A DNA stretch of 43,477 nt from assembly GCA_034436315.1 (NCBI GenBank), contig DAOTVR010000130.1, positions 1-43,477 of the forward strand, given 5' to 3'. The translations under genes were made by a program, and so were the position numbers. The notes under the pieces were generated by a model, which saw only the letters and a list, made by a program, of their open reading frames with translations, ran no database searches and had not been told where the DNA came from. Source of the stretch: Anaerolineae bacterium (GTDB lineage Bacteria; Chloroflexota; Anaerolineae; UBA1429). Below, one piece after another: positions 2,039 to 28,713 of this stretch. Within the stretch, counting starts at the first letter, position 1; every line of letters starts with the position of its first letter.

Positions 2039-2112
2039 TCGGGGCGAGACGATTTGAACGTCCGACCACTTGAACCCCATTCAAGTGCGCTACCTGGCTG
2101 CGCTACGCCCCG
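2039..2112 (-). tRNA. tRNA-Pro (anticodon GGG), CCA not encoded
   Basis: The reverse complement CGGGGCGTAGCGCAGCCAGGTAGCGCACTTGAATGGGGTTCAAGTGGTCGGACGTTCAAATCGTCTCGCCCCGA folds by hand into a 74-nt cloverleaf. It has a 7-bp acceptor stem, a GCGC/GCGC D stem, a CTTGA/TCAAG anticodon stem with loop AT-GGG-GT, and a GGACG/CGTCT T stem with a TTCAAAT loop. Confidence 0.9.
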
Positions 2113-7074: not shown

Positions 7075-7150
7075 GGCTGAAGTCCTCAGCCTTCAGCGAT
7101 CAGCCATCAGCCCTCGGCTGAGGGGCTGACGGCTGAAAGCTGATAGCCGA
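7075..7150. repeat. Heptamer-armed hairpin element (family 2)
   Basis: Left arm is CCTCAGC CTTCAGC GATCAGC CATCAGC CCTCGGC. Right arm is GGGGCTG ACGGCTG AAAGCTG ATAGCCG. It lies directly after the stop at 7060. Confidence 0.7.
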
Positions 7151-7178: not shown

Positions 7179-9893
7179 ATGAAGCGGAGGGTGCTCGTCT
7201 CGTTGGCTGTCCTCGCGGCAGCCTATATGTTCCTCATGGTGGACGGCTCCGCTCTAGAAACCCTCGCTTTCACGCCCTCAAGCGAAGGCTTAAGGGGGAG
7301 TTCGCTTGTTCCGCCTGCCTTGAGCCAGGCCTCGGTTTCCCACGGTGAGGAGAGCGGATCATCGCGCCTGGCCGTGGAGAGCTGGTCGCCGCCGGAGCGG
7401 GTCATCTCGGCGACGGCCGATTGCGCCCACCCCGCGCTGGCCGTGGATCGGGCCGACGGGGCGCTGCACCTCGTCTGGGAGGAGGCCGCCGCGGAGGGCA
7501 ACCGCATCGCCTACGCCCGCCGCGACGCTTTGGGCTGGCAGCCCGAAGCCCTCCCGGCGCCCCAAGGGGATAGCCCGGCCATCGCCCTGGATGCCGGGGG
7601 GCGGGCGCACATCGCCTATATCCAGGCCATCAGCGGGGAGCTACAGGTTTACCACCGCGTCCGCAGCGCGGAGGGCTGGAGCCTGCCGACCAGGGTGAGC
7701 TTGGGCGGCGGCCAATGTGCCGACCCCGATATCGCCATCGCCCCCGGCGGCGAGATAGACCTGGCCTGGGCGACCAGCCTGGGGATGATCAAACAGCTCT
7801 ACCGCGCCCGCTCCACGGATAACGGCGCCAGTTGGGGGCTGGTGGAGCCGCTCCTCTACGACGCGAGCTACGTCTACGGCTATGCCCCCAGCCTGGCCGC
7901 CGCGCCCGACGGGGGGCTCTGGTTGGCCTACCAGGGCGAGCCCGGCCCGACGGGCACCGTCGCGGCGGATATCTACGCCCTGCGATGGAGCGCGGGGCGA
8001 TGGCTTTCGCCGACCAACGTCTCTAACGGGCCGACGGGGCAATTCGCCCGAGGGGCCCAGATCGCCTGCGACTCCAGGGGGCGGGCACACCTCGTCTGGG
8101 AGACGGAGGCGCCCGATGGCCGGCTGTTCATCCAATACGCCCTCTACGCCAACGGCGTCTGGAGCGCGCCCCTGCGGCTCTCTCCGCCCACCGAATCGGC
8201 CACCGGCCCTTGCCTCGCCGTCGGCGCGGACGATACGGTCTATGTCGCCTGGATCGCCGGCCGCGCCCTGAGCTTTCGCAAGCGCGCGAGCAACGGCCTG
8301 TGGAGCGCGCTGGAGCGCATCGCCACCGACCAGGCGGGCCTACGCGGGGTGACGATCGCCGCCGATGGGGGGGCCGTCTATGTGGTGTGGAGCGCGCGCG
8401 GCCCCTCGGGGCTGCGGGAGCTCTTCTTCAGCCGGCGCTTGCCACCGCCAACGCCGACGCCCACGGATACGCCGACCCCCTCGCCCACCTTTACGCTAGA
8501 GCCCACGGCGACGCCCACGCCCACCGTGCCGCTGGTGGAAACGCCGACGGCCACGCCCACAGCAACCGAGACGCTCACGCCGACGGCGACGGTCACCTCG
8601 ACGGCCTCGCCGAGCGAGACGCCGCCCCTCAGCCCCACGCCCACCTATACGGTGATCCTCCCCCCGCGCGCCTTTATCCCCGTCGCCCTCAGGCCCGGCG
8701 GCGAGGCCTCGCCGGAGGGGAATCGCGAGACCCCCACGCCGGCCCAAGCGCGGCTGCAGGCTCTGCCGGCCTGGGCCTGGTCACAGAGCGTGGAGAACCT
8801 CTCCTCCTCCGGCGCCGATTCCCGCCAAGCCGCCCTGGCCGTGGCCCCTAACGGCACGGCCTATGCCGTGTGGCAGGAGTGGGACGAGCGCTATAGGCGC
8901 TGGATGCTCTATTATAGCGTTCGCGCGGGGGGCAATTGGTCGGCGCCGAGCCCCTTCTTCGCCGGGGAGCAGCCCGATCTGGCCGTCGGGCCGGATGGCC
9001 GGGTGCACCTCGTCTACGCCAACGAGATGTTCGGCAACTATGAGATCTATTACTCCACCTGGCTGGGGGATCGCTGGGCGGCCTCCAAGAACGTCTCCAA
9101 TACCAAGGAGGGGGTCTCCTCGCAGCCGGCCGTCGCCTGCGATGCCGGCGGCTTGCCGGTGGTGGTGTGGAGCGACACCACCGGCGGGCAGGCGTACATC
9201 TACTTTGCCTACCAGAATAACGGCGCCTGGCAGACCTATTGGGTCTCTTCCTCCTACGGTGGCAGCGCCCCCGACCTGGCCCTGGGCAAGAACGGCCGCC
9301 TCTGGCTCAGTTGGCAGGCTAAAGAGGGGGATTATTACGACGTCTTTGCCCTCTTCGGCGATGGCCGTTCGTGGAACCGGGAGGCGGTGAACGTCTCGGA
9401 TAGCGCGAGCGCCGACTCCCTCGCCCCTCGGTTGGCGGGGGACCGCTCGTGGGGGGCGTTCCTGGTCTGGCAGGAGGTCCGTAGCAGCTCGGCCATCTAC
9501 TACGCCGATACGCTGGAGGGCATTGACTGGTGGAGCGAGCCGACGAACCTCTCGCAGCTCGCCGGGCGGCCCGAACAGCCCTCTATCGCGGCCAACGCCG
9601 CCGGGGACGTGCACGTCGCCTGGAGCCACGTCGTCACCCCGGCCCAGGGGAGCCAATTACTCCATCGCCGCCGCGACCCCTCCACGGGGCAGTGGCTGCC
9701 GTTCGACGAGATCGCCCAGGAGCCAGCCAACCCCGGCCTCGGCGAGGTGGAGCTGGCCGCCGGCCCCGGCCGAGAGGTCCATGCCCTGTGGGCCAAGCCC
9801 CTGGCCAACGGCAAGCGGGATATCTACCATCGCCAGGGCGACCTGGCCTGGCCCTATCGCCTGCAGTTGCCGCTGATCTTTCGCTCCCGCTAG
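7179..9893 (+). CDS. Secreted protein with two seven-bladed propeller-like halves (sialidase/BNR-like) joined by a PT-rich linker
   Basis: An N-terminal signal/TM segment is present. A blade signature is repeated 7 + 7 times (..PALAVDRADGALHLVWEE.., ..AIALDAGGRAHIAYIQ.., ..LAVGPDGRVHLVYAN.. and others). There is one STDNGASW Asp-box. The linker is about 70 aa of PT-rich sequence. Confidence 0.6.
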   Translation: MKRRVLVSLAVLAAAYMFLMVDGSALETLAFTPSSEGLRGSSLVPPALSQASVSHGEESGSSRLAVESWSPPERVISATADCAHPALAVDRADGALHLVWEEAAAEGNRIAYARRDALGWQPEALPAPQGDSPAIALDAGGRAHIAYIQAISGELQVYHRVRSAEGWSLPTRVSLGGGQCADPDIAIAPGGEIDLAWATSLGMIKQLYRARSTDNGASWGLVEPLLYDASYVYGYAPSLAAAPDGGLWLAYQGEPGPTGTVAADIYALRWSAGRWLSPTNVSNGPTGQFARGAQIACDSRGRAHLVWETEAPDGRLFIQYALYANGVWSAPLRLSPPTESATGPCLAVGADDTVYVAWIAGRALSFRKRASNGLWSALERIATDQAGLRGVTIAADGGAVYVVWSARGPSGLRELFFSRRLPPPTPTPTDTPTPSPTFTLEPTATPTPTVPLVETPTATPTATETLTPTATVTSTASPSETPPLSPTPTYTVILPPRAFIPVALRPGGEASPEGNRETPTPAQARLQALPAWAWSQSVENLSSSGADSRQAALAVAPNGTAYAVWQEWDERYRRWMLYYSVRAGGNWSAPSPFFAGEQPDLAVGPDGRVHLVYANEMFGNYEIYYSTWLGDRWAASKNVSNTKEGVSSQPAVACDAGGLPVVVWSDTTGGQAYIYFAYQNNGAWQTYWVSSSYGGSAPDLALGKNGRLWLSWQAKEGDYYDVFALFGDGRSWNREAVNVSDSASADSLAPRLAGDRSWGAFLVWQEVRSSSAIYYADTLEGIDWWSEPTNLSQLAGRPEQPSIAANAAGDVHVAWSHVVTPAQGSQLLHRRRDPSTGQWLPFDEIAQEPANPGLGEVELAAGPGREVHALWAKPLANGKRDIYHRQGDLAWPYRLQLPLIFRSR

Positions 9894-10735: not shown

Positions 10736-10758
10736 GGCCGCTCACCCCACGATGTCGT

Positions 10759-10782
10759 GGGCGTTCAATGGAACGCCCCTAC
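10759..10782. repeat. Family-1 palindromic element (single copy)
   Basis: GGGCGTTCAATGGAACGCCCCTAC. Its GTAGGGG end, read on the minus strand, contains the TAG stop of the 10779..11834 gene. Confidence 0.75.
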
Positions 10783-11834
10783 GCCTGGCTGCTGGTCGGT
10801 CCCATCGCTTGGCCGAGGGAGGCCAGGGCCGGCGTCTCCACGTTGGCTTGCTTGGCGAGGCGCATCAGGTGATCGTAGAGGGCCTCCATCTCCTCCGAGG
10901 CGGCGGCCAGGTAACCGTCCACGAGCGCGGAGGCCCAGGGGATAAAGGCCATCAAGCGCACCAAGGCCACCTGCAACCCAAGCGGCCGGGCAAAGATCTG
11001 GCTCTCGGCGGGCGGGGTGATGGGGATGCCGTTGGCCGCGAGGACGGTATAGGCCTCGCGCAGGGCCTGAAGGTAGAGCCGGGCCTCCTCGGCGCTGCGG
11101 GCCATCCGGCGCACGTGGCCGCCGTTGCGGTACACGCAGGCCGCCAGCACGGCGATCATCGCCGCGTGGGTCTGCAGCCAGGGCACGATATGCCGCTGCA
11201 CCTCCACCTTGAGCCTCGCCCGGCGGAGGATGCCGGCGGCAAAGTGCAGGCGCTGCGTATCGGCCCCGTCCACCTCGCCGATGACCGTGGTCCCCAGGCC
11301 GAGGGGCCAATGGCGCACCACGCCGTCCACGAGCATCCCCCCCGTCCCGGGGAAGCCCAGGAGGGGCGGCTCCTCGCCCAGGGGCGCAGCCCCGGCGAGG
11401 TTGTGTTGCAAGAGCAAGACGGGCGTGGTCGCCGCGAGCGGCCTGAGCGCCTCCAGGGCCTCGCGCGTCTGGGTACAGGGCACGGCGACGATGGCCAGGT
11501 CATACTCCTCCTGAGAGGGCACCTCGGCGACGAGGCGCACCGCCGGGCGCAGGCGGCGATGGGTGAAGGCATCTTCCACCTGGAGGCCCCGCTCGGCCAG
11601 CTCCTGCAAGCGCCGGCCCCGGGCCAGCAGGGTCACCTCCATCCCCCAATGGGCTAGGTGAGCGGCATAGCTGCTGCCCACCACGCCGGCCCCCAGGACG
11701 AACACGCGAACCTCGCGGTTGCGTGCGCGCCGGGCCGTGATCTGTCGCCGATGGCGGGCGACGGCCCCCGCCGCCAGGCCGCCGGCCAAAAGCCCCGCCA
11801 AGCCCGCGATCGCGTACACCGTGCGCTTGCGCAT
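10779..11834 (-). CDS. Ketopantoate reductase (ApbA/PanE) family oxidoreductase with an N-terminal TM segment
   Basis: Has a Rossmann motif (VRVFVLGAGVVGSSYAAHLAHWGMEVTLLARG) and family-like length. It is the longest ORF among the competing frames. Confidence 0.65.
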   Translation of the reverse strand: MRKRTVYAIAGLAGLLAGGLAAGAVARHRRQITARRARNREVRVFVLGAGVVGSSYAAHLAHWGMEVTLLARGRRLQELAERGLQVEDAFTHRRLRPAVRLVAEVPSQEEYDLAIVAVPCTQTREALEALRPLAATTPVLLLQHNLAGAAPLGEEPPLLGFPGTGGMLVDGVVRHWPLGLGTTVIGEVDGADTQRLHFAAGILRRARLKVEVQRHIVPWLQTHAAMIAVLAACVYRNGGHVRRMARSAEEARLYLQALREAYTVLAANGIPITPPAESQIFARPLGLQVALVRLMAFIPWASALVDGYLAAASEEMEALYDHLMRLAKQANVETPALASLGQAMGPTSSQA

Positions 11835-12515: not shown

Positions 12516-12683
12516 TCAGCTTTCAGCGGTCAGCTTTCGGCTGTCAGCAACCAGCTTTCGGCCGTCGGCGGTCAGTTCTTACCCTGGGGGATGATCGCTG
12601 ACCGAAAAAGCCGATAGCTGCCGGCTGACCGCTGATAGCTGATAACCGAAGGCTGACCGCTGAGGCCTGACTACTGATAACTG
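12516..12683. repeat. Heptamer-armed hairpin element (family 2) between convergent genes
   Basis: Left arm is ATCAGCT TTCAGCG GTCAGCT TTCGGCT GTCAGCA ACCAGCT TTCGGCC GTCGGCG GTCAG. After the loop, the right arm reads GCTGACC..GCTGATA GCTGATA..GCTGACC GCTGAGG. Its last units encode ..GSYQ* of the minus-strand ORF. Confidence 0.75.
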
Positions 12684-13492
12684 CCTGGCGGCAACAGCGG
12701 GGCCATGTGGCTCCAGAGGTTAAAGTAGCGCCCACCGGAGACGCGGCCCACGTCGTCGCGGTAGGCTTGGAGGAAGACGAGGGAGACGCGGCGATGCTCG
12801 GCCGCCCAGCGTTCCAGGGAGCGGAGGAGGAGCCGTGCGGGGCCCTCCACATCCCAATGGCGACAAAAGACGCCCATGTAGGCCCGTTCGGCGTCCGCCT
12901 CGGAGCGCACCAAGGCGAGGAAATCGGCCTCCAGCTCGGCCAGGACCTCGGCGGGGATGGGTTTCAGGCCCTCCCCTAAGTCTACCAAGGCCAAGTTGAC
13001 GGCTGCCAGGAGCGGCCTGGGGCACGCCCCCGGAGGGAGGGCGCGCAGCTCGGCGGCGCAGCGGGGATCGGCATTGGCCACGGTCTTCAGCTCATAGGCG
13101 CGCACAAAGCCGGGGTCGAGCAGGACTATATCGTAAGGATGAAGGGTGAAGGATGAAGGATGGACCGTGGCCCTCATCTCCCTTGGTCCCCCTTCTCCCA
13201 AGTTTGGGAGAAGGGGGGAAGGGGGTTGAGGGTCCTTCGTCCTTCCGCCTTCATCCTTCCCCATGAGGCCCAGCTCGTAAGCCAGGAGAGGAGGGTAATC
13301 GCGGTGTAGCAGGCTCGTCCAGCGGCCATCGCGGGTGGCATAGCGCGCCCTCAAGAGCGGCTCGCGCTCCAAGGCGGCGAAGGCCGCCGCGTGCAGGTCG
13401 GCCTCGCGCAGGAAGAGGTCGGGCGCATCCTGAAACTGCCGGATGAGCTCGGCCAAAGCGCGCTCTAAGGCAACGCAATGTGCAACGCTCAC
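12671..13492 (-). CDS. Hypothetical protein, possible PD-(D/E)XK-fold nuclease, with an in-frame palindromic insert
   Basis: It is the longest ORF in the region and starts with GTG. YDIVLLD..AYELKT fits an hD..(D/E)xK signature. Residues GKDEGG..FTLHP are encoded by the 13135-13262 palindrome. Confidence 0.45.
   Translation of the reverse strand: MSVAHCVALERALAELIRQFQDAPDLFLREADLHAAAFAALEREPLLRARYATRDGRWTSLLHRDYPPLLAYELGLMGKDEGGRTKDPQPPSPLLPNLGEGGPREMRATVHPSSFTLHPYDIVLLDPGFVRAYELKTVANADPRCAAELRALPPGACPRPLLAAVNLALVDLGEGLKPIPAEVLAELEADFLALVRSEADAERAYMGVFCRHWDVEGPARLLLRSLERWAAEHRRVSLVFLQAYRDDVGRVSGGRYFNLWSHMAPLLPPGSYQ
13135..13262. repeat. Family-3 palindromic element with AAGGRTG/CCTTCNN heptamer arms, inside a CDS
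   Basis: Left arm is AAGGATG AAGGGTG AAGGATG AAGGATG. The central perfect palindrome is CCCTTCTCCC-AAGTTT-GGGAGAAGGG. Right arm is CCTTCGT CCTTCCG CCTTCAT CCTTCC. Confidence 0.7.
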
Positions 13493-13508: not shown

Positions 13509-13668
13509 GTCAGCTTTCAGCGGTCAGCCATCAGCTATTGGCAGTTAGCGGTCAGCTATCGGTGATCAACCCTTCCGACTTGAAACTAACGGCTAACAGC
13601 TGACGACTGATAGCTGACAGCTGATGGCTGAAAGCTGATAGCTGACGGCTAATGGCTGATGGCCGATC
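13509..13668. repeat. Heptamer-armed hairpin element (family 2), largest copy
   Basis: Left arm from 13511 is CAGCTTT CAGCGGT CAGCCAT CAGCTAT.. Right arm from 13596 is ACAGCTG ACGACTG ATAGCTG ACAGCTG ATGGCTG AAAGCTG ATAGCTG ACGGCTA ATGGCTG ATGGCCG. Confidence 0.8.
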
Positions 13669-13680
13669 ACGGACAACCAG

Positions 13681-13709
13681 ATTGTAAGTTGGTCGCTGGG
13701 GCTTGTCAA
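13681..13709 (-). promoter_or_regulatory. Consensus sigma70 promoter between two hairpin elements, facing the 12671..13492 ORF
   Basis: The minus strand reads TTGACA-17nt-TACAAT. Confidence 0.55.
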
Positions 13710-13718
13710 CTGCGATGG

Positions 13719-13812
13719 CTGTCAGTGTTCAGCAGTCAGTCGTCAGCGGTCAGCCAGCTCTTGGCCGTCGGCCATTCCGGCTGAGGGCTGAAAGCTGGCT
13801 GCTGATAGCTAC
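13719..13812. repeat. Heptamer-armed hairpin element (family 2)
   Basis: The left arm is GTCAGTG TTCAGCA GTCAGTC GTCAGCG GTCAGCC AGC. After the loop, the right arm is GGCTGAGG GCTGAAA GCTGGCT GCTGATA GCT. It is read through by the listed ORF 13703.. but is probably non-coding. Confidence 0.7.
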
Positions 13813-13825
13813 TTCGGAGGTTTCC

Positions 13826-15337
13826 TTGGAGATTCCCGATCGCGATCGAGCCCGGCTGCGGGCCAGGCTGGTGCGCGCCCTATCGGATATCGGCGCCTTC
13901 AGCCGCGAGGTGCTGCGGCGGCCGCTGCGCGGTTACCAGCTAGAGGTGGCGCGGGCCATCGTCGCCTCGGTCCTGGGGGGCCGGGGGCTGACCTTCGCGG
14001 TGATGATGGCCCGCCAGGCAGGCAAAAACGAGACCTCGGCCCAGGTGGAGGCCTTTTTGCTCAACTACTTTCGCCGCCGGGGCGGGTACCTCGTCAAGGC
14101 CGCGCCCACCTTCAAGCCGCAGGCAGCCAACAGCCTCCTACGGCTGAGGGCGGTGTTGGAGGGCAGCCTCCTCCCCCCGCCGAAGCACGAGGGGGGCTAT
14201 ATCCTGCGCGTGGGCCGGGCGCGGGCGCTTTTCCTCTCGGCCGGCCCCCAGGCCAACGTCGTGGGGGCCACGGCGAACATCCTCCTGGAGGCCGACGAGG
14301 CCCAGGATATAGACGAGGCCAAGTGGGAGAAGGACTTTCGCCCCATGGGGGCCTCCACCAACGTCACCACTGTCCTGTGGGGCACGGCCTGGACCTCGGC
14401 GACGCTCCTGGCGCGGGCCATCCGCGCCCTGCGCCAGGCCGAGGAGCGCGACGGCCTGCGGCGCGTCTTTATCGTCCCCTGGGAGGTCGTGGCCCAGGAG
14501 GTGCCGCCCTATGGGGAGTATATCCGAGGGGAGCTGGAGCGCCTGGGGCCGAACCACCCCTTCATCAAGACCCAGTACGACCTGGAGGAGATAGATGACC
14601 AGGGCGGGATGTTCCCCCCGGCCACGCGCGCGCTCATGGTCGGCACGCACCCGCGCCAACGCGCCCCCACCGAGGGGCGGGAATACGCCCTGCTGGTGGA
14701 CGTGGCCGGCGCATCCGAGGAGCACGCCGGCGGGGGCGTTCAAGCTCTTACCAACTTGGGCGTTCCATCGAACGCCCCTACTGAGCCGCGGCGGGATTCC
14801 ACGGCCCTGACCATCGTGGAGATCGTCCGCAACGAGCTGGGGTTGCCCCGCTTCCTGGTCGTGGATCGCTACGAGTGGACGGGCACGCCCCATCACCAAC
14901 TTTACGGGGCCATCGTGCACCTGGCCGAGCTGTGGGCCCCGACGCGGATCGTCGTGGATGCCACCGGCGTGGGCGCGGGGCTGGCCTCCTTCTTGCGCCA
15001 CGCCCTGGGGGAGCGCGTGCTACCCTTCACCTTCACCCTGGCGAGCAAGAGCGAGCTGGGCTGGGGCTTTTTGGGCATCTGCAACTCGGGGCGCTTCCTG
15101 GATCACCGCGACGACGGCTCGCCGGAGCGCGAGCGCTTCTGGCGCCAGGTGGCCGCCGCCGATTACGAGGTGCTGGCCGGGCCGGATCAGCGCATGCGCT
15201 GGGGCGTGCGCGACGCGGCGGTGCACGACGACCTGCTCATCTCCGCCGCCCTCTGCGCCCTATTGGATCACCGGGCGCCGGCCCCGTATAGCGGCTCGCA
15301 GATCATCGAGGCCGGCGATCCGTTGGCAAGTAGTTAG
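13826..15337 (+). CDS. Phage terminase large subunit-like protein (ATPase plus RNaseH-like nuclease)
   Basis: Has a Walker A-like motif (MMARQAGKNETS), a Walker B motif (ILLEADEAQDI) and a C-terminal VVDATGVGAGLASFL nuclease-type motif. The start is proposed at TTG 13826, after GGAGGTTTCC. The listed start at 13703 lies in repeat DNA. Confidence 0.7.
   Translation: MEIPDRDRARLRARLVRALSDIGAFSREVLRRPLRGYQLEVARAIVASVLGGRGLTFAVMMARQAGKNETSAQVEAFLLNYFRRRGGYLVKAAPTFKPQAANSLLRLRAVLEGSLLPPPKHEGGYILRVGRARALFLSAGPQANVVGATANILLEADEAQDIDEAKWEKDFRPMGASTNVTTVLWGTAWTSATLLARAIRALRQAEERDGLRRVFIVPWEVVAQEVPPYGEYIRGELERLGPNHPFIKTQYDLEEIDDQGGMFPPATRALMVGTHPRQRAPTEGREYALLVDVAGASEEHAGGGVQALTNLGVPSNAPTEPRRDSTALTIVEIVRNELGLPRFLVVDRYEWTGTPHHQLYGAIVHLAELWAPTRIVVDATGVGAGLASFLRHALGERVLPFTFTLASKSELGWGFLGICNSGRFLDHRDDGSPERERFWRQVAAADYEVLAGPDQRMRWGVRDAAVHDDLLISAALCALLDHRAPAPYSGSQIIEAGDPLASS
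14732..14781. repeat. Family-1 palindromic element copy, in frame inside the terminase gene
   Basis: GGGGGCGTTCAAGCTCTTACCAACTTGGGCGTTCCATCGAACGCCCCTAC encodes GGVQALTNLGVPSNAPT. Confidence 0.65.
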
Positions 15338-15425
15338 CCATCAGCTATCAGCTTTTAGCCACCAGCAGTTGTCCCTTGGGCAAAGAACTAGCCGTTGACT
15401 AATGGCTGACAACCGAAAGCTAAGG
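15335..15425. repeat. Heptamer-armed hairpin element (family 2)
   Basis: The left arm is TTAGC CATCAGC TATCAGC TTTTAGC CACCAGC. After the loop, the right arm is GTTGACT AATGGCT GACAACC GAAAGCT. It begins at the terminase stop codon. Confidence 0.7.
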
Positions 15426-16040
15426 ACGATGTTGACGGAAGAGGAGCTGATCGCCCTGTGGCAGGTGGCCCGGCGGGAGGTGTTGCGCCGTTGCGGGCAC
15501 ACCCTGGCCCGCCTGCGCGCCGGCGAGGGGGGCTTTTACGAGGCCGAGGATTTCTGGCAGGACCTCTTCTTGGCCTTCTGGAGGCTGCTCCGGAAATGGC
15601 AGGCCACCACGCCGGGGGATGAGCGCGCCCTCTGGGCCGCCTGGCGCAAGTTCCTCCACCGGGGAGGGGCGCAGATCCTGCGTCGCGCGCCGATGCGCCT
15701 CTGGGCGCGGCGCGAGCAGCCGCTGGCTCCCCAGCTCCTCGCCCTGGAGGACGACGCAGACGAGGCGGAACGGCCCCTGGACCCCATGGCCCAGGAGGCG
15801 CTCATCCAGGCGGAGGACGCCGAGGCAGAGTACCTGCGTCGGGCCTGCCTGGACGACCTGGAGGCGGCCCTTTGGGCGCTTCGCCCGGGGCAGCGGCAGG
15901 TGATCTTCATGGCCACCCTCGCCGAGTTGCCCGCCGCGGAGGTGGCCCGCCTCCTGGGGCTGAGCGACGGCAACGCCATCGCCCAGCGCCTGTACGTCGC
16001 CCGCGCGGCCTTGCGAAGGCTGTTTCGTGGTGACCAGTAG
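15402..16040 (+). CDS. Divergent sigma-70/ECF-like protein (region 4 HTH); a terminase small subunit-like role is also possible
   Basis: LRPGQRQVIFMATLAELPAAEVARLLGLSDGNAIAQRLYVARAALRRL is a sigma region-4-type HTH. The ATG at 15402 lies in the hairpin arm, and the ATG at 15429 is an alternative start. The TAG stop lies inside a family-1 repeat. Confidence 0.55.
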   Translation: MADNRKLRTMLTEEELIALWQVARREVLRRCGHTLARLRAGEGGFYEAEDFWQDLFLAFWRLLRKWQATTPGDERALWAAWRKFLHRGGAQILRRAPMRLWARREQPLAPQLLALEDDADEAERPLDPMAQEALIQAEDAEAEYLRRACLDDLEAALWALRPGQRQVIFMATLAELPAAEVARLLGLSDGNAIAQRLYVARAALRRLFRGDQ

Positions 16041-16094
16041 GGGCGTTCCATTGAACGCCCCTACCGCCTCGGGCGTTCAATGGAACGCCCCTAC
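16037..16094. repeat. Family-1 palindromic elements (two tandem copies)
   Basis: GTAGGGGCGTTCCATTGAACGCCCCTAC is followed by CGCCTCGGGCGTTCAATGGAACGCCCCTAC. Confidence 0.8.
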
Positions 16095-19689: not shown

Positions 19690-19752
19690 GTTATCAGTGA
19701 TCAGCAATCTGTAGTCAGACTGACCACTGATTGCTGAGAACTGATTACTGAC
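19690..19752. repeat. Heptamer-armed hairpin element (family 2 variant, almost no loop)
   Basis: GTTATCAG TGATCAG CAATCTG TAGTCAG pairs with ACTGACC ACTGATT GCTGAGA ACTGATT ACTGAC. The centre is GTCAG-A-CTGAC. Confidence 0.7.
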
Positions 19753-19773
19753 ACCTGAGAGGGGAGATACGCC

Positions 19774-21990: not shown

Positions 21991-22011
21991 CCTCCCCTCC
22001 CCGATTGTGTT

Positions 22012-22234
22012 GGGGCGTTCAATTGAACGCCCCTGCTGGACGCCCTATCCATCCCCTTATGTAGGGACGTTCAATTGAACGTCCCTACATAAGCGTTCAA
22101 TTGAACGTCCCTACCCAAGCGTCCAACTGACCGCCCCTGTATCCATCCCCTTACGTAGGGGCGTTCAATTGAACGCCCCTACCAAAACGTTCAATTGAAC
22201 GTCCCTACACAAACATTCAAACGAACGCCCCTAC
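22012..22234. repeat. Array of about 7 family-1 palindromic units
   Basis: Full units GTAGGG(A/G)CGTTCAATTGAACG(T/C)CCCTAC lie at 22061-22088 and 22155-22182. 26-nt partial units of the form nnAAGCGTTCAATTGAACGTCCCTAC, some degenerate, lie between them. Confidence 0.85.
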
Positions 22235-24640: not shown

Positions 24641-24749
24641 GTAGGGGCGTTCCATTGAATGCCCCTACCCAAGCGTTCCATTGAATGCCCCTACTTGACG
24701 CCTCACCCATCCCCCCGTATAGTAGGGACGTTCAATGGAACGTCCCTAT
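24641..24749. repeat. Family-1 palindromic units (three copies)
   Basis: GTAGGGGCGTTCCATTGAATGCCCCTAC, then CCAAGCGTTCCATTGAATGCCCCTAC, then GTAGGGACGTTCAATGGAACGTCCCTAT. Confidence 0.85.
24695..24723 (+). promoter_or_regulatory. Sigma70-type promoter embedded in the repeat module, upstream of the flavoprotein gene
   Basis: TTGACG-17nt-TATAGT. The -10 runs directly into the palindrome GTAGGGACGTTCAATGGAACGTCCCTAT. Confidence 0.55.
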
Positions 24750-24761
24750 CCAAGGATAGAC

Positions 24762-26708
24762 ATGAGCGAGCTTTGCGACGTCTTGATCATCGGCGGCGGG
24801 GGGGCGGCGTTGCGTGCGGCCATCGCCGCCTATGAGCGCGCTCCGGGGCTCCAGATCGTCCTGGTGACCAAGGGAAACCTGGGCCATAGCGGGGTGACGG
24901 CCACGGCCTGCTCCGACCGCATGGCCTTTCACGCCACGTTGCCCACCACCGAGCCGGGCGGCCCCGAGGCCTGGCGCTACCACGCCGAGGATATCTACCG
25001 CATCGGGGGATGCGTCTCCGATTGGGACCTGGCCGAGCTCCTGGCCAAGGAGAGCGCCCAGGCCTTTGCCTATCTGGAGCGGCTGGGGGTCCCCTGGGTG
25101 CGCCGCGCCGACGGCACGGTGGATCAATTCCTCACCGACGGCTCGCTCTACGCCCGCGCCTGCTACACCGGGCCTTATACCGCCAACCACATCGAGGAGG
25201 CCCTCCTGCGCCGCCTGCGGGAGCTGCCCATCCGTGTCGTGGAGCAGACCCTGGTGGCCGAGCTTCTACTGGACGCGCGCGGTGAGCAGGTGATCGGGGC
25301 GGCGCTCGTCTCGGAGCGGGATGGACAGATCAGCGCCCTGGGAGCCAAGGCCATCGTCCTGGCCACGGGCGGGGCCGGGCAGGCCTTTGCGGTGAACGTC
25401 TATCCCCCCGATTGCACCGGCGACGGCTACGCCCTGGCCTATCGCGCGGGGGCGGAGCTGGTCAACCTGGAATTCATCCAGATCGGCCTCTGTTCGCTCC
25501 AGACCGGGCTGGCCTGTTCCGGGGATATGATGCGCGCCCTGCCGCGCCTGGTCAACGACCGCGAGGAAGAGTTCCTGGCCCGCTACCTGCCGCCGGGGAC
25601 GACGCCCGCCGAGATGTACGGCCTCCTCTTCGCCAAAGGGGCGAGCTGGCCCGTCTCGGTGAACGAGCCCTCGCACCTCATCGACATCGCCGTCTCTCGG
25701 GAGTTGGCCGCCGGGCGGCGCGTCTACTTGGATTACGCCCGCGATCCCTGGGGTTTGGATTTCAGTGAGGGCGTTCAGTTGAACGCCCCTACAACCTTGG
25801 GCGTTCAGTTGAACGCCCCTACTGCCTCGGGTGCACGATCGAATGCCCCTACCGCGGTGCACGAGCGGGTGCGCGCATGGTATCGGGGCAAGGGATTGGA
25901 GCCGGGCGACCCGCGCCTGCGCAGCCCGCTGGAGCGCCTGAGGGCCATCAACCCCCAGGCAGTGGAGTGGCTGGCCGCGCGGGGGATTGATCTGGCCCGC
26001 GGGGACCGGGTGGAGGTGGCCCCGGCGGTGCAGCACTTTCAGGGCGGGGTCAAGATCCGCACCCGCGCCGAGACGACCCTGCGCGGCCTCTATGCGGCGG
26101 GGGAGGTGGCCGGGGGCCAGCACGGGGCCAACCGCCCCGGAGGCAACGCCCTATTGGATACGCAGGTCTTTGGGCGGATCGCCGGAGAATCCGCCGCCGA
26201 GTTCGCCCTGGCCGCCGGTAGTCGCGTCCCCTCGGTGCGCGGCCCAACGCCGCAAGACGCCGAGGACGCGATCCGACGCCTGTTCAGGGGCGTTCAGTTG
26301 AATGCCCAAGGCGGTAGGGGCGTTCAATTGAACGCCCCTACCGTGGTGCGCGAGCGGGTGCGCCGGGCCATGTCCGCCGCCTGCGGGGTTTATCGCACCG
26401 AGGCCGGACTAAGGGATCTCGTGCAAACCCTAGAGGAGCTGGCCGAGCATGGGGTCAGCGCCGAGGGTGTGCCCTTGAACGAGGCTTTGGAGGCGGCGAA
26501 CATCCTCCAGGTGGCCCGGTTGGTGGCCCGCGCCGCCCTGGAGCGCGACGAGAGCCGCGGGCCACACCTGCGCTTCGCGGCCGAGGGCTCGCTGGAGCCG
26601 CTGGCGCAGGATGACCGACGCTGGGCGCTCTACACGGTCATCCGCAGGGGGCCAGATGGCCCCCTCCTGGAGCGCCGCCGGCCCGTGCGCCCGGAGAAAG
26701 GTGTATAG
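24762..26708 (+). CDS. FAD-binding oxidoreductase of the SdhA/FrdA/NadB (FAD_binding_2) family, with two repeat-derived in-frame inserts
   Basis: Contains the [18 protein letters not shown] dinucleotide fold, [24 protein letters not shown], the active-site context HFQGGVKI, and [22 protein letters not shown]. The start at M10 of the listed ORF avoids repeat DNA. Confidence 0.85.
25769..25852. repeat. Three family-1 units, in frame within the flavoprotein CDS
   Basis: GGCGTTCAGTTGAACGCCCCTAC is followed by two 30-nt units ending in CCCCTAC. Together they encode [28 protein letters not shown]. Confidence 0.8.
26285..26341. repeat. Two family-1 units, in frame within the flavoprotein CDS
   Basis: AGGGGCGTTCAGTTGAATGCCC AAGGCG GTAGGGGCGTTCAATTGAACGCCCCTAC encodes [19 protein letters not shown]. 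Confidence 0.8.
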
Positions 26709-26722
26709 AGAAAGGACACAAG

Positions 26723-26950
26723 ATGGGTTTCACCAGGATCACTGTCAATCCTAAACAGATGGATGGAATGCCCTGCATTCGCGGGTTGCGCATCCCGGTA
26801 GCTACGGTCGTGGGCATGGTCGCCGACGGCATGAGCGAAGAAGAGATCCTTGAAGCCTTCCCCGACCTGGAGCGCGAGGATATCCGCGAGGCCTTGCGCT
26901 ACGCTGCCGAGGCCGTGCGCGAGCGCGAGCTGCCCTTGGCGGTGGCCTGA
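26723..26950 (+). CDS. DUF433 domain protein (antitoxin-like HTH)
   Basis: [53 protein letters not shown] is typical DUF433. Confidence 0.8.
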
Positions 26951-27324
26951 TGAAGTTCCTTATAGATAACCCTCTATCGCCCATGGTTGCAGAGGGTTTG
27001 CGAAGAGCAGGGCACGATGCGACGCATGTGCGCGACTATGGGATGCAGGCAGCCCTGGACGAGGAGATTTTTGCCAGGGCAGCCCAAGAGGAGCGTACTC
27101 TAGTCTCCGCAGACACTGACTTTGCTATGCTCTTGGCGCTTCGGCAAGAGAGGAAACCTTCGGTGATCTTGTTTCGGCGCGGTTCAGGGCGCCGCCCGGC
27201 ACAACAGGTAACACTGCTTCTGGCCAACCTGGATACGATACGGGAGGCGCTAGAACAAGGAAGCGTTGTCGTCCTTGACCAGACGCGTATACGCATCCGT
27301 CGGTTGCCAATAGGGGGAGGCTGA
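26950..27324 (+). CDS. DUF5615 PIN-like nuclease domain protein (toxin-like)
   Basis: [18 protein letters not shown]....[22 protein letters not shown] is typical of the DUF433 partner family. The gene junction is TGATG, a 1-nt overlap. Confidence 0.7.
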
Positions 27325-28617: not shown

Positions 28618-28618
28618 A

Positions 28619-28713
28619 GCCGTCAGTTATCAGCCGTCAGCCATCAGCTAGACTCCCCGCAAGCTGACGACTGATGGCTGAGGGCCGTTTACTAAAAGCC
28701 GACAACTGATAAC
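28619..28713. repeat. Heptamer-armed hairpin element (family 2)
   Basis: The left arm is GCCGTCAG TTATCAGC CGTCAGC CATCAGC. After the loop, the right arm is AGCTGAC GACTGAT GGCTGAG ..CAACTGATAAC. It starts 2 nt after the NUDIX stop. Confidence 0.7.

What the first reader, a model, noticed from the sequence alone, without database searches (positions are those of the whole stretch)
25769..25852. Three palindromic repeat units translated in frame inside a conserved SdhA/NadB-family flavoprotein (insert 1)
The CDS 24762..26708 has clear FAD_binding_2-family motifs on both sides of this segment. Here it contains GGCGTTCAGTTGAACGCCCCTAC followed by two 30-nt units ending in CCCCTAC, and it reads [28 protein letters not shown].

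One of the three frames of the palindrome core (GCG TTC AAT TGA) contains a stop. The copies inside genes all use the open GVQLNA frame.

The coding copies have a 30-nt period, a multiple of 3. The intergenic arrays at 22.1 and 24.6 kb have a 26-nt period. A 30-nt unit also occurs at 16065-16094.

This looks like RPE-style in-frame colonisation of an essential-type enzyme, with the frame preserved.
Basis: partly seen in the sequence, partly recalled or inferred. Interest (0 to 1): 0.7.

Follow-up and report, generated by a model that had tools for sequence, protein, structure and literature searches.

The report
REP repeats translated inside flavoprotein gene
Three copies of a small palindromic mobile repeat (a GTAG-tagged REP element) sit in frame inside a conserved Chloroflexota flavoprotein gene and add about 28 amino acids to a variable loop; this is a real and clean example of a phenomenon already described in Rickettsia and other bacteria.

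Summary
Window 25770-25852 holds two exact 23-nt units and one degenerate unit, 30 nt apart. They lie in frame in CDS 24762..26708, a 648-aa protein with FAD_binding_2 and Succ_DH_flav_C domains. A second in-frame pair lies at 26282-26341.

Of the 120 best orthologues (median 607 aa), only a 99%-identical one carries these segments, so both are insertions. The host gene is intact and under purifying selection (dN/dS about 0.2). In an AlphaFold model both inserts are low-confidence coil.

The repeat is a 28-nt perfect palindrome, GTAGGGGCGTTCAATTGAACGCCCCTAC. This is a "double-foot" GTAG-tagged REP. The same 28-mer occurs in many phyla. It also lies inside or beside RAYT (REP-associated tyrosine transposase) genes of subclass 2.4 / Group 4, as Quentin et al. 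2018 described for that class.

Only one of the three frames of the palindrome is open (RGVQLNAPT). Arrays with a 26-nt period are closed in all six frames. Frame and 3n phasing in genes are therefore what selection lets through, not a design feature.

In-frame REP/RPE insertions are known (Ogata 2000; Di Nocera 2013). The verdict is a new member of a known kind, of moderate interest. No RAYT gene lies in the window, and translation of the insert has not been shown directly.

The parts
24762..26708 (+). Host CDS: a 648-aa FAD-dependent flavoprotein of the SdhA/FrdA/NadB/TfrA superfamily. Its specific function is unknown.
   Evidence: Pfam FAD_binding_2 (8e-48) and Succ_DH_flav_C (1e-14). All NCBIfam equivalogs score below cut-off. 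The Foldseek top hit is E. coli FrdA 1kf6_A, E 3e-33, TM 0.70/0.78. There are 2892 homologues with E<=1e-20, and the named ones are Anaerolineae/Chloroflexota MAG proteins.
25770..25792 (-). Insert 1, REP unit 1. The hairpin GCGTTCAGTTGAACGC is followed by CCCTAC, so the GTAG foot reads on the minus strand. It is translated as GVQLNAPT.
   Evidence: Exact 23-mer. Absent from orthologues.
25800..25822 (-). Insert 1, REP unit 2. It is identical to unit 1 over 23 of 23 nt, while the 7-nt spacers differ at 4 positions.
   Evidence: If 4 differences fell at random over the 30 nt, the chance that all four land in the 7-nt spacer is C(7,4)/C(30,4) = 0.0013 (my own arithmetic).
25830..25852 (-). Insert 1, REP unit 3. 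It is degenerate (7 of 23 mismatches) but keeps the CCCCTAC foot and the 30-nt phase. It is translated as GARSNAPT.
   Evidence: The corresponding P0002 segment SSRQDAAPT may be a remnant of the same unit; this link is weak.
26282..26341 (.). Insert 2: a degenerate unit (TCAGGG GCGTTCAGTTGAATGC) followed by a perfect 28-nt double-foot palindrome at 26314-26341. The cores are 30 nt apart. It is translated as [19 protein letters not shown] (residues 509-527).
   Evidence: Absent from orthologues: the anchor distance is 65 aa against a mode of 50 aa.
24641..24749 (.). Cluster of three REP units just upstream of the CDS. The cores at 24647 and 24673 are 26 nt apart, and a double-foot copy lies at 24722-24749. 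The spurious ATG at 24735 lies in the CAATGG loop of that last copy.
22009..22234 (.). Intergenic REP cluster: 7 units in two 26-nt-period arrays plus a single copy. It is closed in all six reading frames.
16037..16094 (.). A double-foot REP plus a second unit 30 nt downstream. The TAG in the GTAGGG foot is the stop codon of the sigma-70-region-4 ORF 15402..16040.
14735..14781 (-). A third in-frame site in the window: a degenerate unit plus a clear unit, 24 nt apart, in the terminase-like ORF 13703..15337. They read GGVQALTNLGVPSNAPT.
   Evidence: The Terminase_6C match is weak and below cut-off. Insertion relative to orthologues was not tested.
10755..10782 (.). A REP copy between two minus-strand genes. 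The TAG of its foot is the stop codon of the ApbA/PanE-like ORF 10779..11834.

Best explanation
The segment is a tandem of three units of a GTAG-tagged repetitive palindromic element (REP). It belongs to the 28-nt 'double-foot' type, GTAG-GGGCGTTC-AATT-GAACGCCC-CTAC. The units have become inserted in a variable loop of a conserved Chloroflexota (Anaerolineae-like) FAD flavoprotein gene.

**Shown**
- The segment is an insertion relative to orthologues.
- It belongs to a dispersed repeat family of this genome.
- The gene stays intact and constrained.
- Only one reading frame of the palindrome is open, and only 3n-spaced arrays can be read through.

**Inferred**
- The insert is translated as a disordered loop (xGVQLNAPT repeats).
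- It persists because insertions in the two closed frames, or with 26-nt spacing, truncate the protein and are removed by selection.
- The units were spread by a RAYT (Y1 HUH tyrosine transposase of subclass 2.4 / Group 4) acting on the single-stranded DNA hairpin and its GTAG foot. This is the mechanism proposed for REP/REPIN systems and shown in vitro for E. coli TnpA-REP.
- Arrays grow by adding new units next to existing ones.

As RNA, the inserted units also form very stable hairpins inside the coding region. These may affect translation or mRNA decay. No function for the host needs to be assumed.
For: **It is an insertion**
- Both segments are absent from 26 of the 27 other sequences in alignment A1, and the REP peptide from 119 of the 120 best orthologues.
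- Both are absent at DNA level from L001.
- They are present identically in two independent metagenome assemblies, L002 and L003.

**It belongs to a repeat family**
- 18 matches against 0 expected.
- About 20 units at 7 loci in the window.

**REP features**
- A perfect palindrome with GTAG/CTAC feet and a GGG/CCC stem base. As RNA it folds at -22.7 kcal/mol, z = -7.7.
- This matches the GTAG REPs of Di Nocera 2013.
- It also matches the 28-nt 'double foot' REPs that Quentin 2018 tie to TnpA-REP subclass 2.4, for example Caldilinea GTAGGGGCGAAAAATTTTTCGCCCCTAC.

**Link to RAYT**
- In L038 a Y1_Tnp gene is flanked by same-family palindromes and has one inside it. Its best NCBIfam match is REP_Tyr_transpos at 1e-20. 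Its only PDB hit is a weak match (E 0.012) to 4er8, TnpA-REP.
- L128 has REP-like hairpins on both sides of the gene plus one inside. L127 has one 56 nt upstream.
- 86 of the 120 best homologues encode (R)GVQLNAPT at one place after the HUH motif, although that peptide had been removed from the query.
- Two genomes that carry the palindrome elsewhere (L066, L076) also carry such a RAYT gene.

**The host gene is functional**
- dN/dS is 0.20 against L002 (9 synonymous, 5 non-synonymous changes) and 0.195 against L001.

**The sites are permissive loops**
- pLDDT is below 50, with coil structure, at 337-360 and 511-519, within a model of pTM 0.83.
- Sister orthologues P0003-5 carry two other hairpin repeats in frame, one of them at the same site.

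**Frame filter**
- The 26-nt arrays are closed in all six frames, while the 30-nt insert is open.

**Other hosts of the same 28-mer, in frame**
- MetH (L111).
- An nSTAND1 NTPase (L104).
Against: - No RAYT gene lies in the 43-kb window. Its presence in this genome is therefore untested.
- Translation of the insert is inferred only; no proteomic or RNA data were available.
- Low pLDDT also occurs in conserved parts of the model (44-65, 113-138, 453-467). It is therefore weak evidence for a surface loop, and no solvent exposure could be computed.
- Insert 2 is 60 nt long, but the net gain is about 11 aa over the closest orthologues and 15 aa over the modal anchor spacing. Either native residues were replaced or the alignment of this variable stretch is uncertain.
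- The way arrays grow (new insertion, slippage or conversion) is not resolved.
- The host's biochemical role is unknown.
Confidence: 0.85

Rival explanations
1. The segment is an ancestral, native loop of this flavoprotein family that other lineages have lost. Its likeness to intergenic repeats would then be secondary, with the repeats derived from the gene.
For: The region is variable in length among orthologues. P0002 has ...AAPT at the matching place, which could be read as a shared native motif.
Against: - 119 of the 120 best orthologues lack the peptide.
- The same 23- to 28-nt sequence occurs at six other loci in the window. It also occurs as an exact 28-mer in many phyla and inside RAYT genes.
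- Two units are identical at every synonymous site, while the rest of the gene differs from its relatives at dS about 0.57.
Confidence: 0.02
2. The gene is a decaying or unexpressed pseudogene, so the inserts are tolerated because nothing is selected.
For: The gene has two separate repeat insertions and a repeat cluster in its 5' leader. No expression data are available.
Against: - The 648-codon ORF is intact.
- All invariant columns of a 28-sequence alignment are retained.
- dN/dS is 0.20 between the two insert-bearing alleles and 0.195 against the insert-free relative.
- Both inserts keep the frame.
Confidence: 0.04
3. The insert is removed before the mature protein is made, either at RNA level (hairpin excision or processing) or at protein level, so the enzyme is unaltered.
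For: As RNA the units form very stable structures: -48.4 kcal/mol for insert 1 (z = -5.5) and -44.6 kcal/mol for insert 2.
Against: - No Rfam family matches the region. The only hit in the window is a tRNA.
- The segments are far too small for an intein or for a group I or II intron.
- If they were removed, there would be no need for every genic copy to sit in the single open frame with 3n spacing.
- Rickettsia proteins with RPE-1 elements at the N-terminus are reported to be expressed in vivo (PMC3733652).
Confidence: 0.03
4. The in-gene copies were selected for a function. For example, they could be a RAYT or other protein binding site, an intragenic attenuator or mRNA-stability element, or a useful flexible linker. 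On this view they are more than tolerated selfish DNA.
For: - Three of the coding units share the loop variant CAGTTG (synonymous CAA>CAG), which no intergenic copy in the window has.
- The cores of units 1 and 2 are identical while their spacers differ.
- The structures are very stable as RNA.
- The same REP is conserved inside RAYT genes across phyla.
Against: - Insert-free orthologues are the rule.
- Sister lineages have unrelated hairpin repeats at the same site. This points to a permissive site rather than a sequence-specific role.
- The third unit is decaying.
Confidence: 0.06

Closest known systems
'Double-foot' REPs associated with TnpA-REP/RAYT subclass 2.4 (Quentin et al. 2018, PMC6006769), equivalent to RAYT Group 4 of Bertels et al. 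2017 (PMC5581495)
   Same: - It is a 28-nt perfect palindrome with 5' GTAG and 3' CTAC, a GGG/CCC stem base and a 4-nt loop.
- It is found in Cyanobacteria and Caldilineae-type Chloroflexota, with a patchy spread across phyla.
[quoted passage not shown]
   Different: - The exact stem (GCGTTC/GAACGC) is not among the REPs listed in that paper's table.
- No RAYT gene is present in the window, so the link for this genome rests on other genomes.
- That paper deals with REPs inside RAYT genes, not with this flavoprotein.
GTAG-tagged REP families, including REPs inside genes (Di Nocera, De Gregorio and Rocco 2013, PMC3733652)
   Same: - It is a short hairpin with a terminal GTAG.
- It occurs as singletons, dimers and clusters, and often lies at or over the 3' ends of ORFs.
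- Intragenic dimers or groups encode 20-30 aa, and clusters encode up to 82 aa.
- Chloroflexi are among the hosts (GTAG-23 in T. roseum and R. castenholzii).
   Different: - The sequence differs from the peptides listed for GTAG-23 (for example GAAQPRTY).
- Head-to-tail arrays are common here (26-nt period), whereas that paper reports HT dimers as rare or absent in most genomes.
Rickettsia palindromic elements (RPE; Ogata et al. 2000 is cited from my own knowledge, and via PMC3733652)
   Same: It is a palindromic repeat inserted in frame in conserved genes that stay functional, and it is thought to sit in surface loops.
   Different: - RPE-1 is about 100-150 nt long and lineage-restricted, while this unit is 22-28 nt.
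- This unit has a GTAG foot and a RAYT link.
- The host is a free-living Chloroflexota bacterium, not an obligate intracellular one.
E. coli REP/BIME with TnpA-REP (Ton-Hoang 2012 and Messing 2012, PDB 4er8)
   Same: A GTAG foot plus hairpin is recognised by a monomeric Y1 HUH enzyme. This is the mechanistic model used here.
   Different: - E. coli REPs are imperfect and bulged, with a single foot, and are extragenic.
- The RAYT seen here is only distantly related (E 0.012 to 4er8).

Membership tests
GTAG-tagged REP (Di Nocera 2013) / canonical REP (Quentin 2018) | A short (20-40 nt) stem-loop with a 5' GT[AG]G tetranucleotide at the foot of the hairpin | tested here: met
   The sequence is GTAG-GGGCGTTC-AATT-GAACGCCC(-CTAC). 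The stem is 12 bp including the feet. As RNA it folds at -22.7 kcal/mol, z = -7.7.
GTAG-tagged REP | Many dispersed copies in the genome, as singletons, dimers and clusters | tested here: inconclusive
   About 20 units at 7 loci in 43.5 kb, with 18 matches against 0 expected. The rest of the genome was not available.
GTAG-tagged REP | Mostly extragenic, close to or overlapping the 3' ends of ORFs | tested here: met
   Four of the 7 loci are intergenic. Two copies supply the TAG stop of the upstream gene (10779, 16038). Seven of about 20 units are genic, which is a high share.
Double-foot REP of RAYT subclass 2.4 (Quentin 2018) | [quoted passage not shown] | tested here: met
   Perfect copies lie at 16037-64, 22061-88, 22155-82 and 26314-41, and near-perfect ones at 24641-68 and 24722-49. 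The architecture is the same as Caldilinea GTAGGGGCGAAAAATTTTTCGCCCCTAC in the paper's table.
Double-foot REP of RAYT subclass 2.4 | A cognate RAYT gene in the same genome, flanked by (and often containing) the REP | not testable with these tools
   The window holds no RAYT core. In other genomes the same 28-mer flanks or lies inside RAYT genes (L038, L126-L131), and 86 of 120 homologues encode it.
Rickettsia palindromic elements (RPE) | In-frame insertion in conserved genes that remain intact, shown by comparison with orthologues | tested here: met
Rickettsia palindromic elements (RPE) | Sequence homology to an RPE family, with a Rickettsiales host | tested here: not met
   The sequence is different. 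The hosts are Chloroflexota, cyanobacteria and others. It works like an RPE but is not a member of that family.
SdhA / FrdA / NadB / TfrA equivalogs (host protein) | Score at or above the curated NCBIfam cut-off for the equivalog | tested here: not met
   The best score is TfrA at 296.7 bits against a cut-off of 718. sdhA_frdA_Gneg scores 234.9 against 567, and nadB 183.7 against 453. The protein belongs to the superfamily only (Pfam; Foldseek).
MITE | Terminal inverted repeats around a non-coding core of roughly 70-300 bp, with target-site duplications | tested here: not met
   The unit is 22-28 nt with no internal core. No direct repeats are evident at the flanks of the 124 copies inspected by eye. 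In 14% of copies the flanks extend the palindrome by 3 nt or more.
Intein, or group I/II intron | A self-splicing protein or RNA domain of characteristic size and motifs | tested here: not met
   The inserts are 28 aa / 84 nt and about 20 aa / 60 nt long. Rfam gives no hit in the region.

The most novel reading that the evidence does not exclude
In this Anaerolineae clade, small hairpin repeats might be a regular source of protein-loop variation rather than rare accidents. Three unrelated repeat families have entered the same loop of one enzyme in sister lineages. The genic REP copies share a codon-friendly loop variant (CAGTTG) and 3n phasing. This could mean there is a coding-adapted REP subpopulation that RAYT keeps copying within genes, or that the intragenic hairpins have been recruited as RAYT-addressable regulatory sites.
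Probability: 0.08. Interest if true: 0.6.

Novelty: new member of a known kind. Interest (0 to 1): 0.35.

Why it matters
- **Annotation.** This is a clean, checkable case for annotators. REP units in this genome create false start codons (ATG 24735). They supply real stop codons (10779, 16038). They also produce mirror-image antisense ORFs (25266..26123) and lengthen proteins by tens of residues. Gene callers and homology-based length checks will stumble on all of these.
- **Biology.** It extends in-frame REP colonisation, known from Rickettsia, Opitutus, Thauera and RAYT genes themselves, to a conserved Chloroflexota flavoprotein.
- **Permissive sites.** Two loops of the SdhA/FrdA fold accept 11-28 extra residues, and three unrelated hairpin repeat families have used the flavoprotein's loops in sister lineages, two of them the insert-1 site itself. 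This is a natural map of permissive sites that could guide loop engineering.
- **Limits.** It does not open a new class of system.

Tried and rejected
- **Rfam scan of the window at gathering threshold.** It found only a tRNA, so the repeat is not a curated RNA family.
- **Full-text search for the 16-mers and 12-mers.** No paper holds the 16-mers. The 12-mer hits are Leishmania kDNA primers and are irrelevant.
- **The search of protein representatives with the 30-aa insert.** It gave 7 hits, nearly all unrelated low-complexity repeat proteins. Only P0241 (KGVQPNAPT x3) looks related. The query is too short for a library of 1.8 billion proteins.
- **Word-indexed search with REP-peptide concatemers.** The number of host protein families therefore remains uncounted.
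- **RAYT gene in the window.** None was found. All tblastn hits of 120 RAYTs fall on the REP copies, through the shared peptide.
- **Ideas considered and dropped:**
  - CRISPR array: periods of 26 and 30 nt leave no room for spacers.
  - Integron attC: the R'/R'' cores are absent.
  - dif site: the repeat is multi-copy.
  - MITE with target-site duplication: no duplications are seen.
  - Assembly artefact: the same inserts occur in two other assemblies.
- **Solvent exposure of the inserts.** Only pLDDT and secondary structure were used.
Full report
**1. The observation**

- Window 25770-25852 reads GGCGTTCAGTTGAACGCCCCTAC, a 7-nt spacer, the same 23-mer, another 7-nt spacer, then GGTGCACGATCGAATGCCCCTAC.
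- The period is 30 nt. The third unit differs from the first two at 7 of 23 positions but keeps the CCCCTAC tail.
- The segment lies in the ORF 24735/24762..26708 (+) and is read as [30 protein letters not shown], residues 336-365 counted from the ATG at 24762.
- The 23-mer has 18 matches at up to 3 mismatches in the window, against none in 100 dinucleotide-preserving shuffles.
- A relaxed scan gives about 20 units at seven loci: 10755-82, 14735-81, 16037-94, 22009-234, 24641-749, 25770-852 and 26282-341.
- Tandem Repeats Finder confirms the 26-nt arrays at 22.1 kb.

**2. The host gene**

- The 648-aa product has Pfam FAD_binding_2 (8e-48) and Succ_DH_flav_C (1e-14).
- Its model (pTM 0.83) superposes best on E. 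coli FrdA (1kf6_A, E 3e-33, TM 0.70/0.78) and on SdhA structures.
- It scores far below every NCBIfam equivalog cut-off, the best being TfrA at 297 bits against 718.
- No iron-sulfur partner gene is a conserved neighbour in the window or in four related contigs.
- It is thus a conserved member of the SdhA/FrdA/NadB superfamily with unknown specific function. The label 'essential-type' is not established.
- The closest homologues that carry a name are from Anaerolineae/Chloroflexota MAGs.
- The start at 24762 agrees with the orthologues' N-termini. The ATG at 24735 lies in the CAATGG loop of a repeat copy.

**3. It is an insertion**

- In an alignment of 28 orthologues, only P0001 (99% identical) has the segment. 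All others pass from ...DPxGL to ...RVRxWY in about 8-10 residues.
- Among the 120 best hits (median length 607 aa), only P0001 contains a GVxxNAP motif.
- The distance between conserved anchors around site 1 is 62 aa, against a mode of 35 aa. Around the second site it is 65 aa, against 50 aa.
- At DNA level both inserts are missing from the closest insert-free relative (L001, 78% amino-acid identity). They are identical in two further assemblies, L002 and L003, which rules out an assembly artefact.
- The second insert (26282-26341, [19 protein letters not shown], residues 509-527) consists of a degenerate unit and a perfect 28-nt palindrome, with cores again 30 nt apart.

**4. The gene is alive**

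- The ORF is intact and retains every invariant column of the alignment.
- By the Nei-Gojobori method, dN/dS is 0.20 between the two insert-bearing alleles (9 synonymous, 5 non-synonymous changes) and 0.195 against the insert-free L001.
- In the AlphaFold model the inserts are coil with pLDDT below 50 (337-360 and 511-519), between confident elements.
- Some conserved stretches also have low pLDDT, and I could not compute solvent exposure. 'Surface loop' is therefore likely but not proven.
- Independent support comes from the sister orthologues P0003-P0005 (73-74% identical). They carry two other hairpin repeats in frame:
  - CAGACAAGTTTCAATC...GATTGAAACTTGTCTG, read as QTSFNL...
  - GCCCCCGACTGGATCGGGGGC, read as APDWIGG or, in the other orientation, PPIQSGA.
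- One of these sits at the same place as insert 1. These positions therefore tolerate insertions.

**5. What the repeat is**

- The full unit is a perfect 28-nt palindrome, GTAGGGGCGTTCAATTGAACGCCCCTAC. Array units are the 16-nt hairpin plus CCCTAC, which on the other strand is GTAG-GG-hairpin.
- A 5' GTAG at the foot of a hairpin is the hallmark of REP elements. Di Nocera et al. 2013 sorted such repeats into 24 GTAG families, with members in Chloroflexi and Cyanobacteria. They listed many REPs inside genes, where dimers and groups encode 20-30 aa and clusters up to 82 aa. They equated Rickettsia RPE-4 and RPE-6 with such repeats.
The hosts include Chloroflexota, several cyanobacterial genera, Ignavibacteria, WOR-3, Cloacimonadota, Calditrichota and others.
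- In 122 of 124 copies the two variable positions change together, so the palindrome is kept.
- The flanks are unrelated, except in Okeania and Trichodesmium, where the palindrome is nested in a larger repeat. In 14% of copies the flanks extend the palindrome by 3 nt or more, against 1.6% expected.

**6. The transposase link**

- One of those loci (L038) holds a Y1 transposase gene. Its best NCBIfam match is 'REP-associated tyrosine transposase' (1e-20, 74 bits against a cut-off of 80). Its only PDB hit is a weak match (E 0.012) to E. coli TnpA-REP, 4er8.
- That gene is flanked on both sides by same-family palindromes (GTAGGGGCGTTTAATTAAACGCCCCTAC, a compensatory stem variant). It also contains the canonical 28-mer in frame.
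- I searched with that protein after deleting the nine REP-encoded residues. The search gave 7894 homologues, many named RayT by JGI. Of the best 120, 86 encode (R)GVQLNAPT at one place, 10-25 residues after the HUH motif.
- At DNA level the exact 28-mer is inside the gene in L126, L128/129 and L130/131. It lies 56 nt upstream of the gene in L127. L128 also has REP-like hairpins at both gene ends.
- Two of these genomes are ones in which the palindrome was also found elsewhere (L066, L076).
- All of this matches what Quentin et al. 2018 reported for TnpA-REP subclass 2.4, which is Bertels' RAYT Group 4, common in Cyanobacteria, Chlorobia and Caldilineae. [quoted passage not shown]
- Their table lists 28-nt double-foot REPs of the same build, for example Caldilinea GTAGGGGCGAAAAATTTTTCGCCCCTAC. 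It does not list this exact stem.
- The window itself contains no RAYT core.

**7. Frame and phase**

- Translating the palindrome shows TGA in one frame (AAT TGA) and TAG in another (G TAG GG). Only RGVQLNAPT is open, and by symmetry the same holds on the other strand.
- The 26-nt arrays are closed in all six frames. The 30-nt insert is open in the gene's frame and in a mirror antisense frame.
- The other genic pair, at 14735-14781 in a terminase-like ORF, is 24 nt apart and uses the same frame.
- The rule that genic copies use one frame with a 3n period is therefore what purifying selection must leave. It need not be a property of the element.
- A 30-nt spacing also occurs after a stop codon (16043/16073), so that spacing exists outside genes too.
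- Units 1 and 2 are identical over 23 nt, but their spacers differ at 4 of 7 positions. If 4 differences fell at random over 30 nt, the chance that all four land in the spacer is 0.0013 (my own arithmetic). This argues against a simple recent 30-nt duplication. It favours separate unit additions or homogenisation of the cores.

**8. Mechanism: shown and inferred**

- Shown:
  - The segments are insertions.
  - They belong to a dispersed repeat family.
  - The host gene is under constraint.
  - The frame logic holds.
  - The same REP is linked to RAYT genes in other genomes.
- Inferred from the REP/RAYT and IS200/IS605 literature:
  - A RAYT recognises the single-stranded DNA hairpin and its GTAG foot, then cleaves and rejoins it, spreading units.
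  - Insertions in genes survive only in permissive loops and in the open frame.
- Not resolved:
  - How arrays grow.
  - Whether the very stable intragenic RNA hairpins (-48 and -45 kcal/mol) affect expression.
  - What the flavoprotein does.

**9. Novelty and score**

- In-frame palindromic repeats in conserved genes have been known since the Rickettsia RPEs. REPs within genes and within RAYT genes were catalogued in 2013 and 2018.
- This is a well-supported new instance, with a REP sequence variant and a host protein not listed in those papers. It is a new member of a known kind.
- The most attractive extra is that three unrelated hairpin repeats have colonised the same flavoprotein in sister lineages, two of them at the insert-1 loop.
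- Interest: 0.35.

Noticed in passing
window 10779-10781 and 16038-16040: The TAG inside the REP foot (GTAGGG) serves as the stop codon of two genes: the ApbA/PanE-like ORF 10779..11834 (-) and the sigma-70-region-4 ORF 15402..16040 (+). REP insertion may have reset their C-termini.
   Followed up: partly
window 24735 and 25266-26123 (-): These are traps for gene callers. An ATG in the CAATGG loop of a REP copy extends the flavoprotein ORF by 9 codons. Because the repeat is a palindrome, a 285-aa antisense ORF also reads [17 protein letters not shown] across insert 1.
   Followed up: yes
window 14735-14781 in ORF 13703..15337 (+): A further in-frame REP pair (GGVQALTNLGVPSNAPT, 24 nt apart) lies in a 544-aa ORF with a weak, below-cut-off match to Terminase_6C, next to a sigma-like ORF. 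This may be a prophage remnant. Insertion relative to orthologues was not checked.
   Followed up: partly
L123 2324-4306, L124 1700-3649 (orthologues P0005, P0004): Sister-lineage orthologues of the flavoprotein carry two other hairpin repeat families in frame at several sites, in both orientations. The families are CAGACAAGTTTCAATC..GATTGAAACTTGTCTG and GCCCCCGACTGGATCGGGGGC. One insertion is at the same site as insert 1.
   Followed up: partly
L126 3001-3570, L130/L131 3001-3576: In a Chloroflexia and a Dehalococcoidia MAG, the subclass 2.4-like RAYT gene (with the 28-mer inside it) sits between a NurA gene and a small ORF followed by a HerA-type DUF87 ATPase gene. This is a conserved position inside what looks like a DNA-end-processing operon.
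   Followed up: no
L008, L015, L023, L024, L035, L037 and about 30 other Okeania/Trichodesmium/Dapis loci: In these low-GC cyanobacteria the variant GTAGGGACGTTCCATGGAACGTCCCTAC is nested in a larger conserved repeat, found in both orientations. Its flanks read ...TTGATGAACCACATCTTCACAAGCAAAAC on one side and TGTGGTCTACCCAAATGAAAACCGCTGTAA on the other.
   Followed up: no
L004-L122 (124 copies): In 14% of copies the sequence immediately flanking the 28-mer extends the palindrome by 3-10 nt, against 1.6% expected. Either the element lands in the centre of existing hairpins or the stems grow outward.
   Followed up: partly
L111 about 7852-7879; L104 7447-7474: The same REP lies in frame in a cyanobacterial MetH, after the B12-binding domain (GRDVPWNVPTG). 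It also lies in frame in an nSTAND1 NTPase, just after the P-loop region ([11 protein letters not shown]).
   Followed up: partly
window 12516-12644, 13509-13754, 19719-19758, 28618-28648, 7086-7136: Intergenic arrays of 7-nt units (TCAGCNN and, inverted, NNGCTGA) flank ORF 12671..13492 and other genes and can pair into long imperfect hairpins. This is a second repeat class, unrelated to the REP.
   Followed up: no
window 25771, 25801, 26290: Three genic REP units share the loop variant CAGTTG (synonymous CAA>CAG in the VQL reading). Intergenic copies have CAATTG, CCATTG or CAATGG. This could reflect codon preference, a subfamily or gene conversion.
   Followed up: no
window 26723-27324: A DUF433 gene (annotated on the near-identical contig L002) and a DUF5615/PIN-like gene (Pfam match on the window ORF 26950..27324) form a toxin-antitoxin-type pair directly downstream of the flavoprotein gene. 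The insert-free relative L001 has a different small-gene pair (DUF6883/DUF4926) upstream.
   Followed up: no
window 2039-2112 (-): A tRNA gene, the only Rfam hit in the window at gathering threshold.
   Followed up: no
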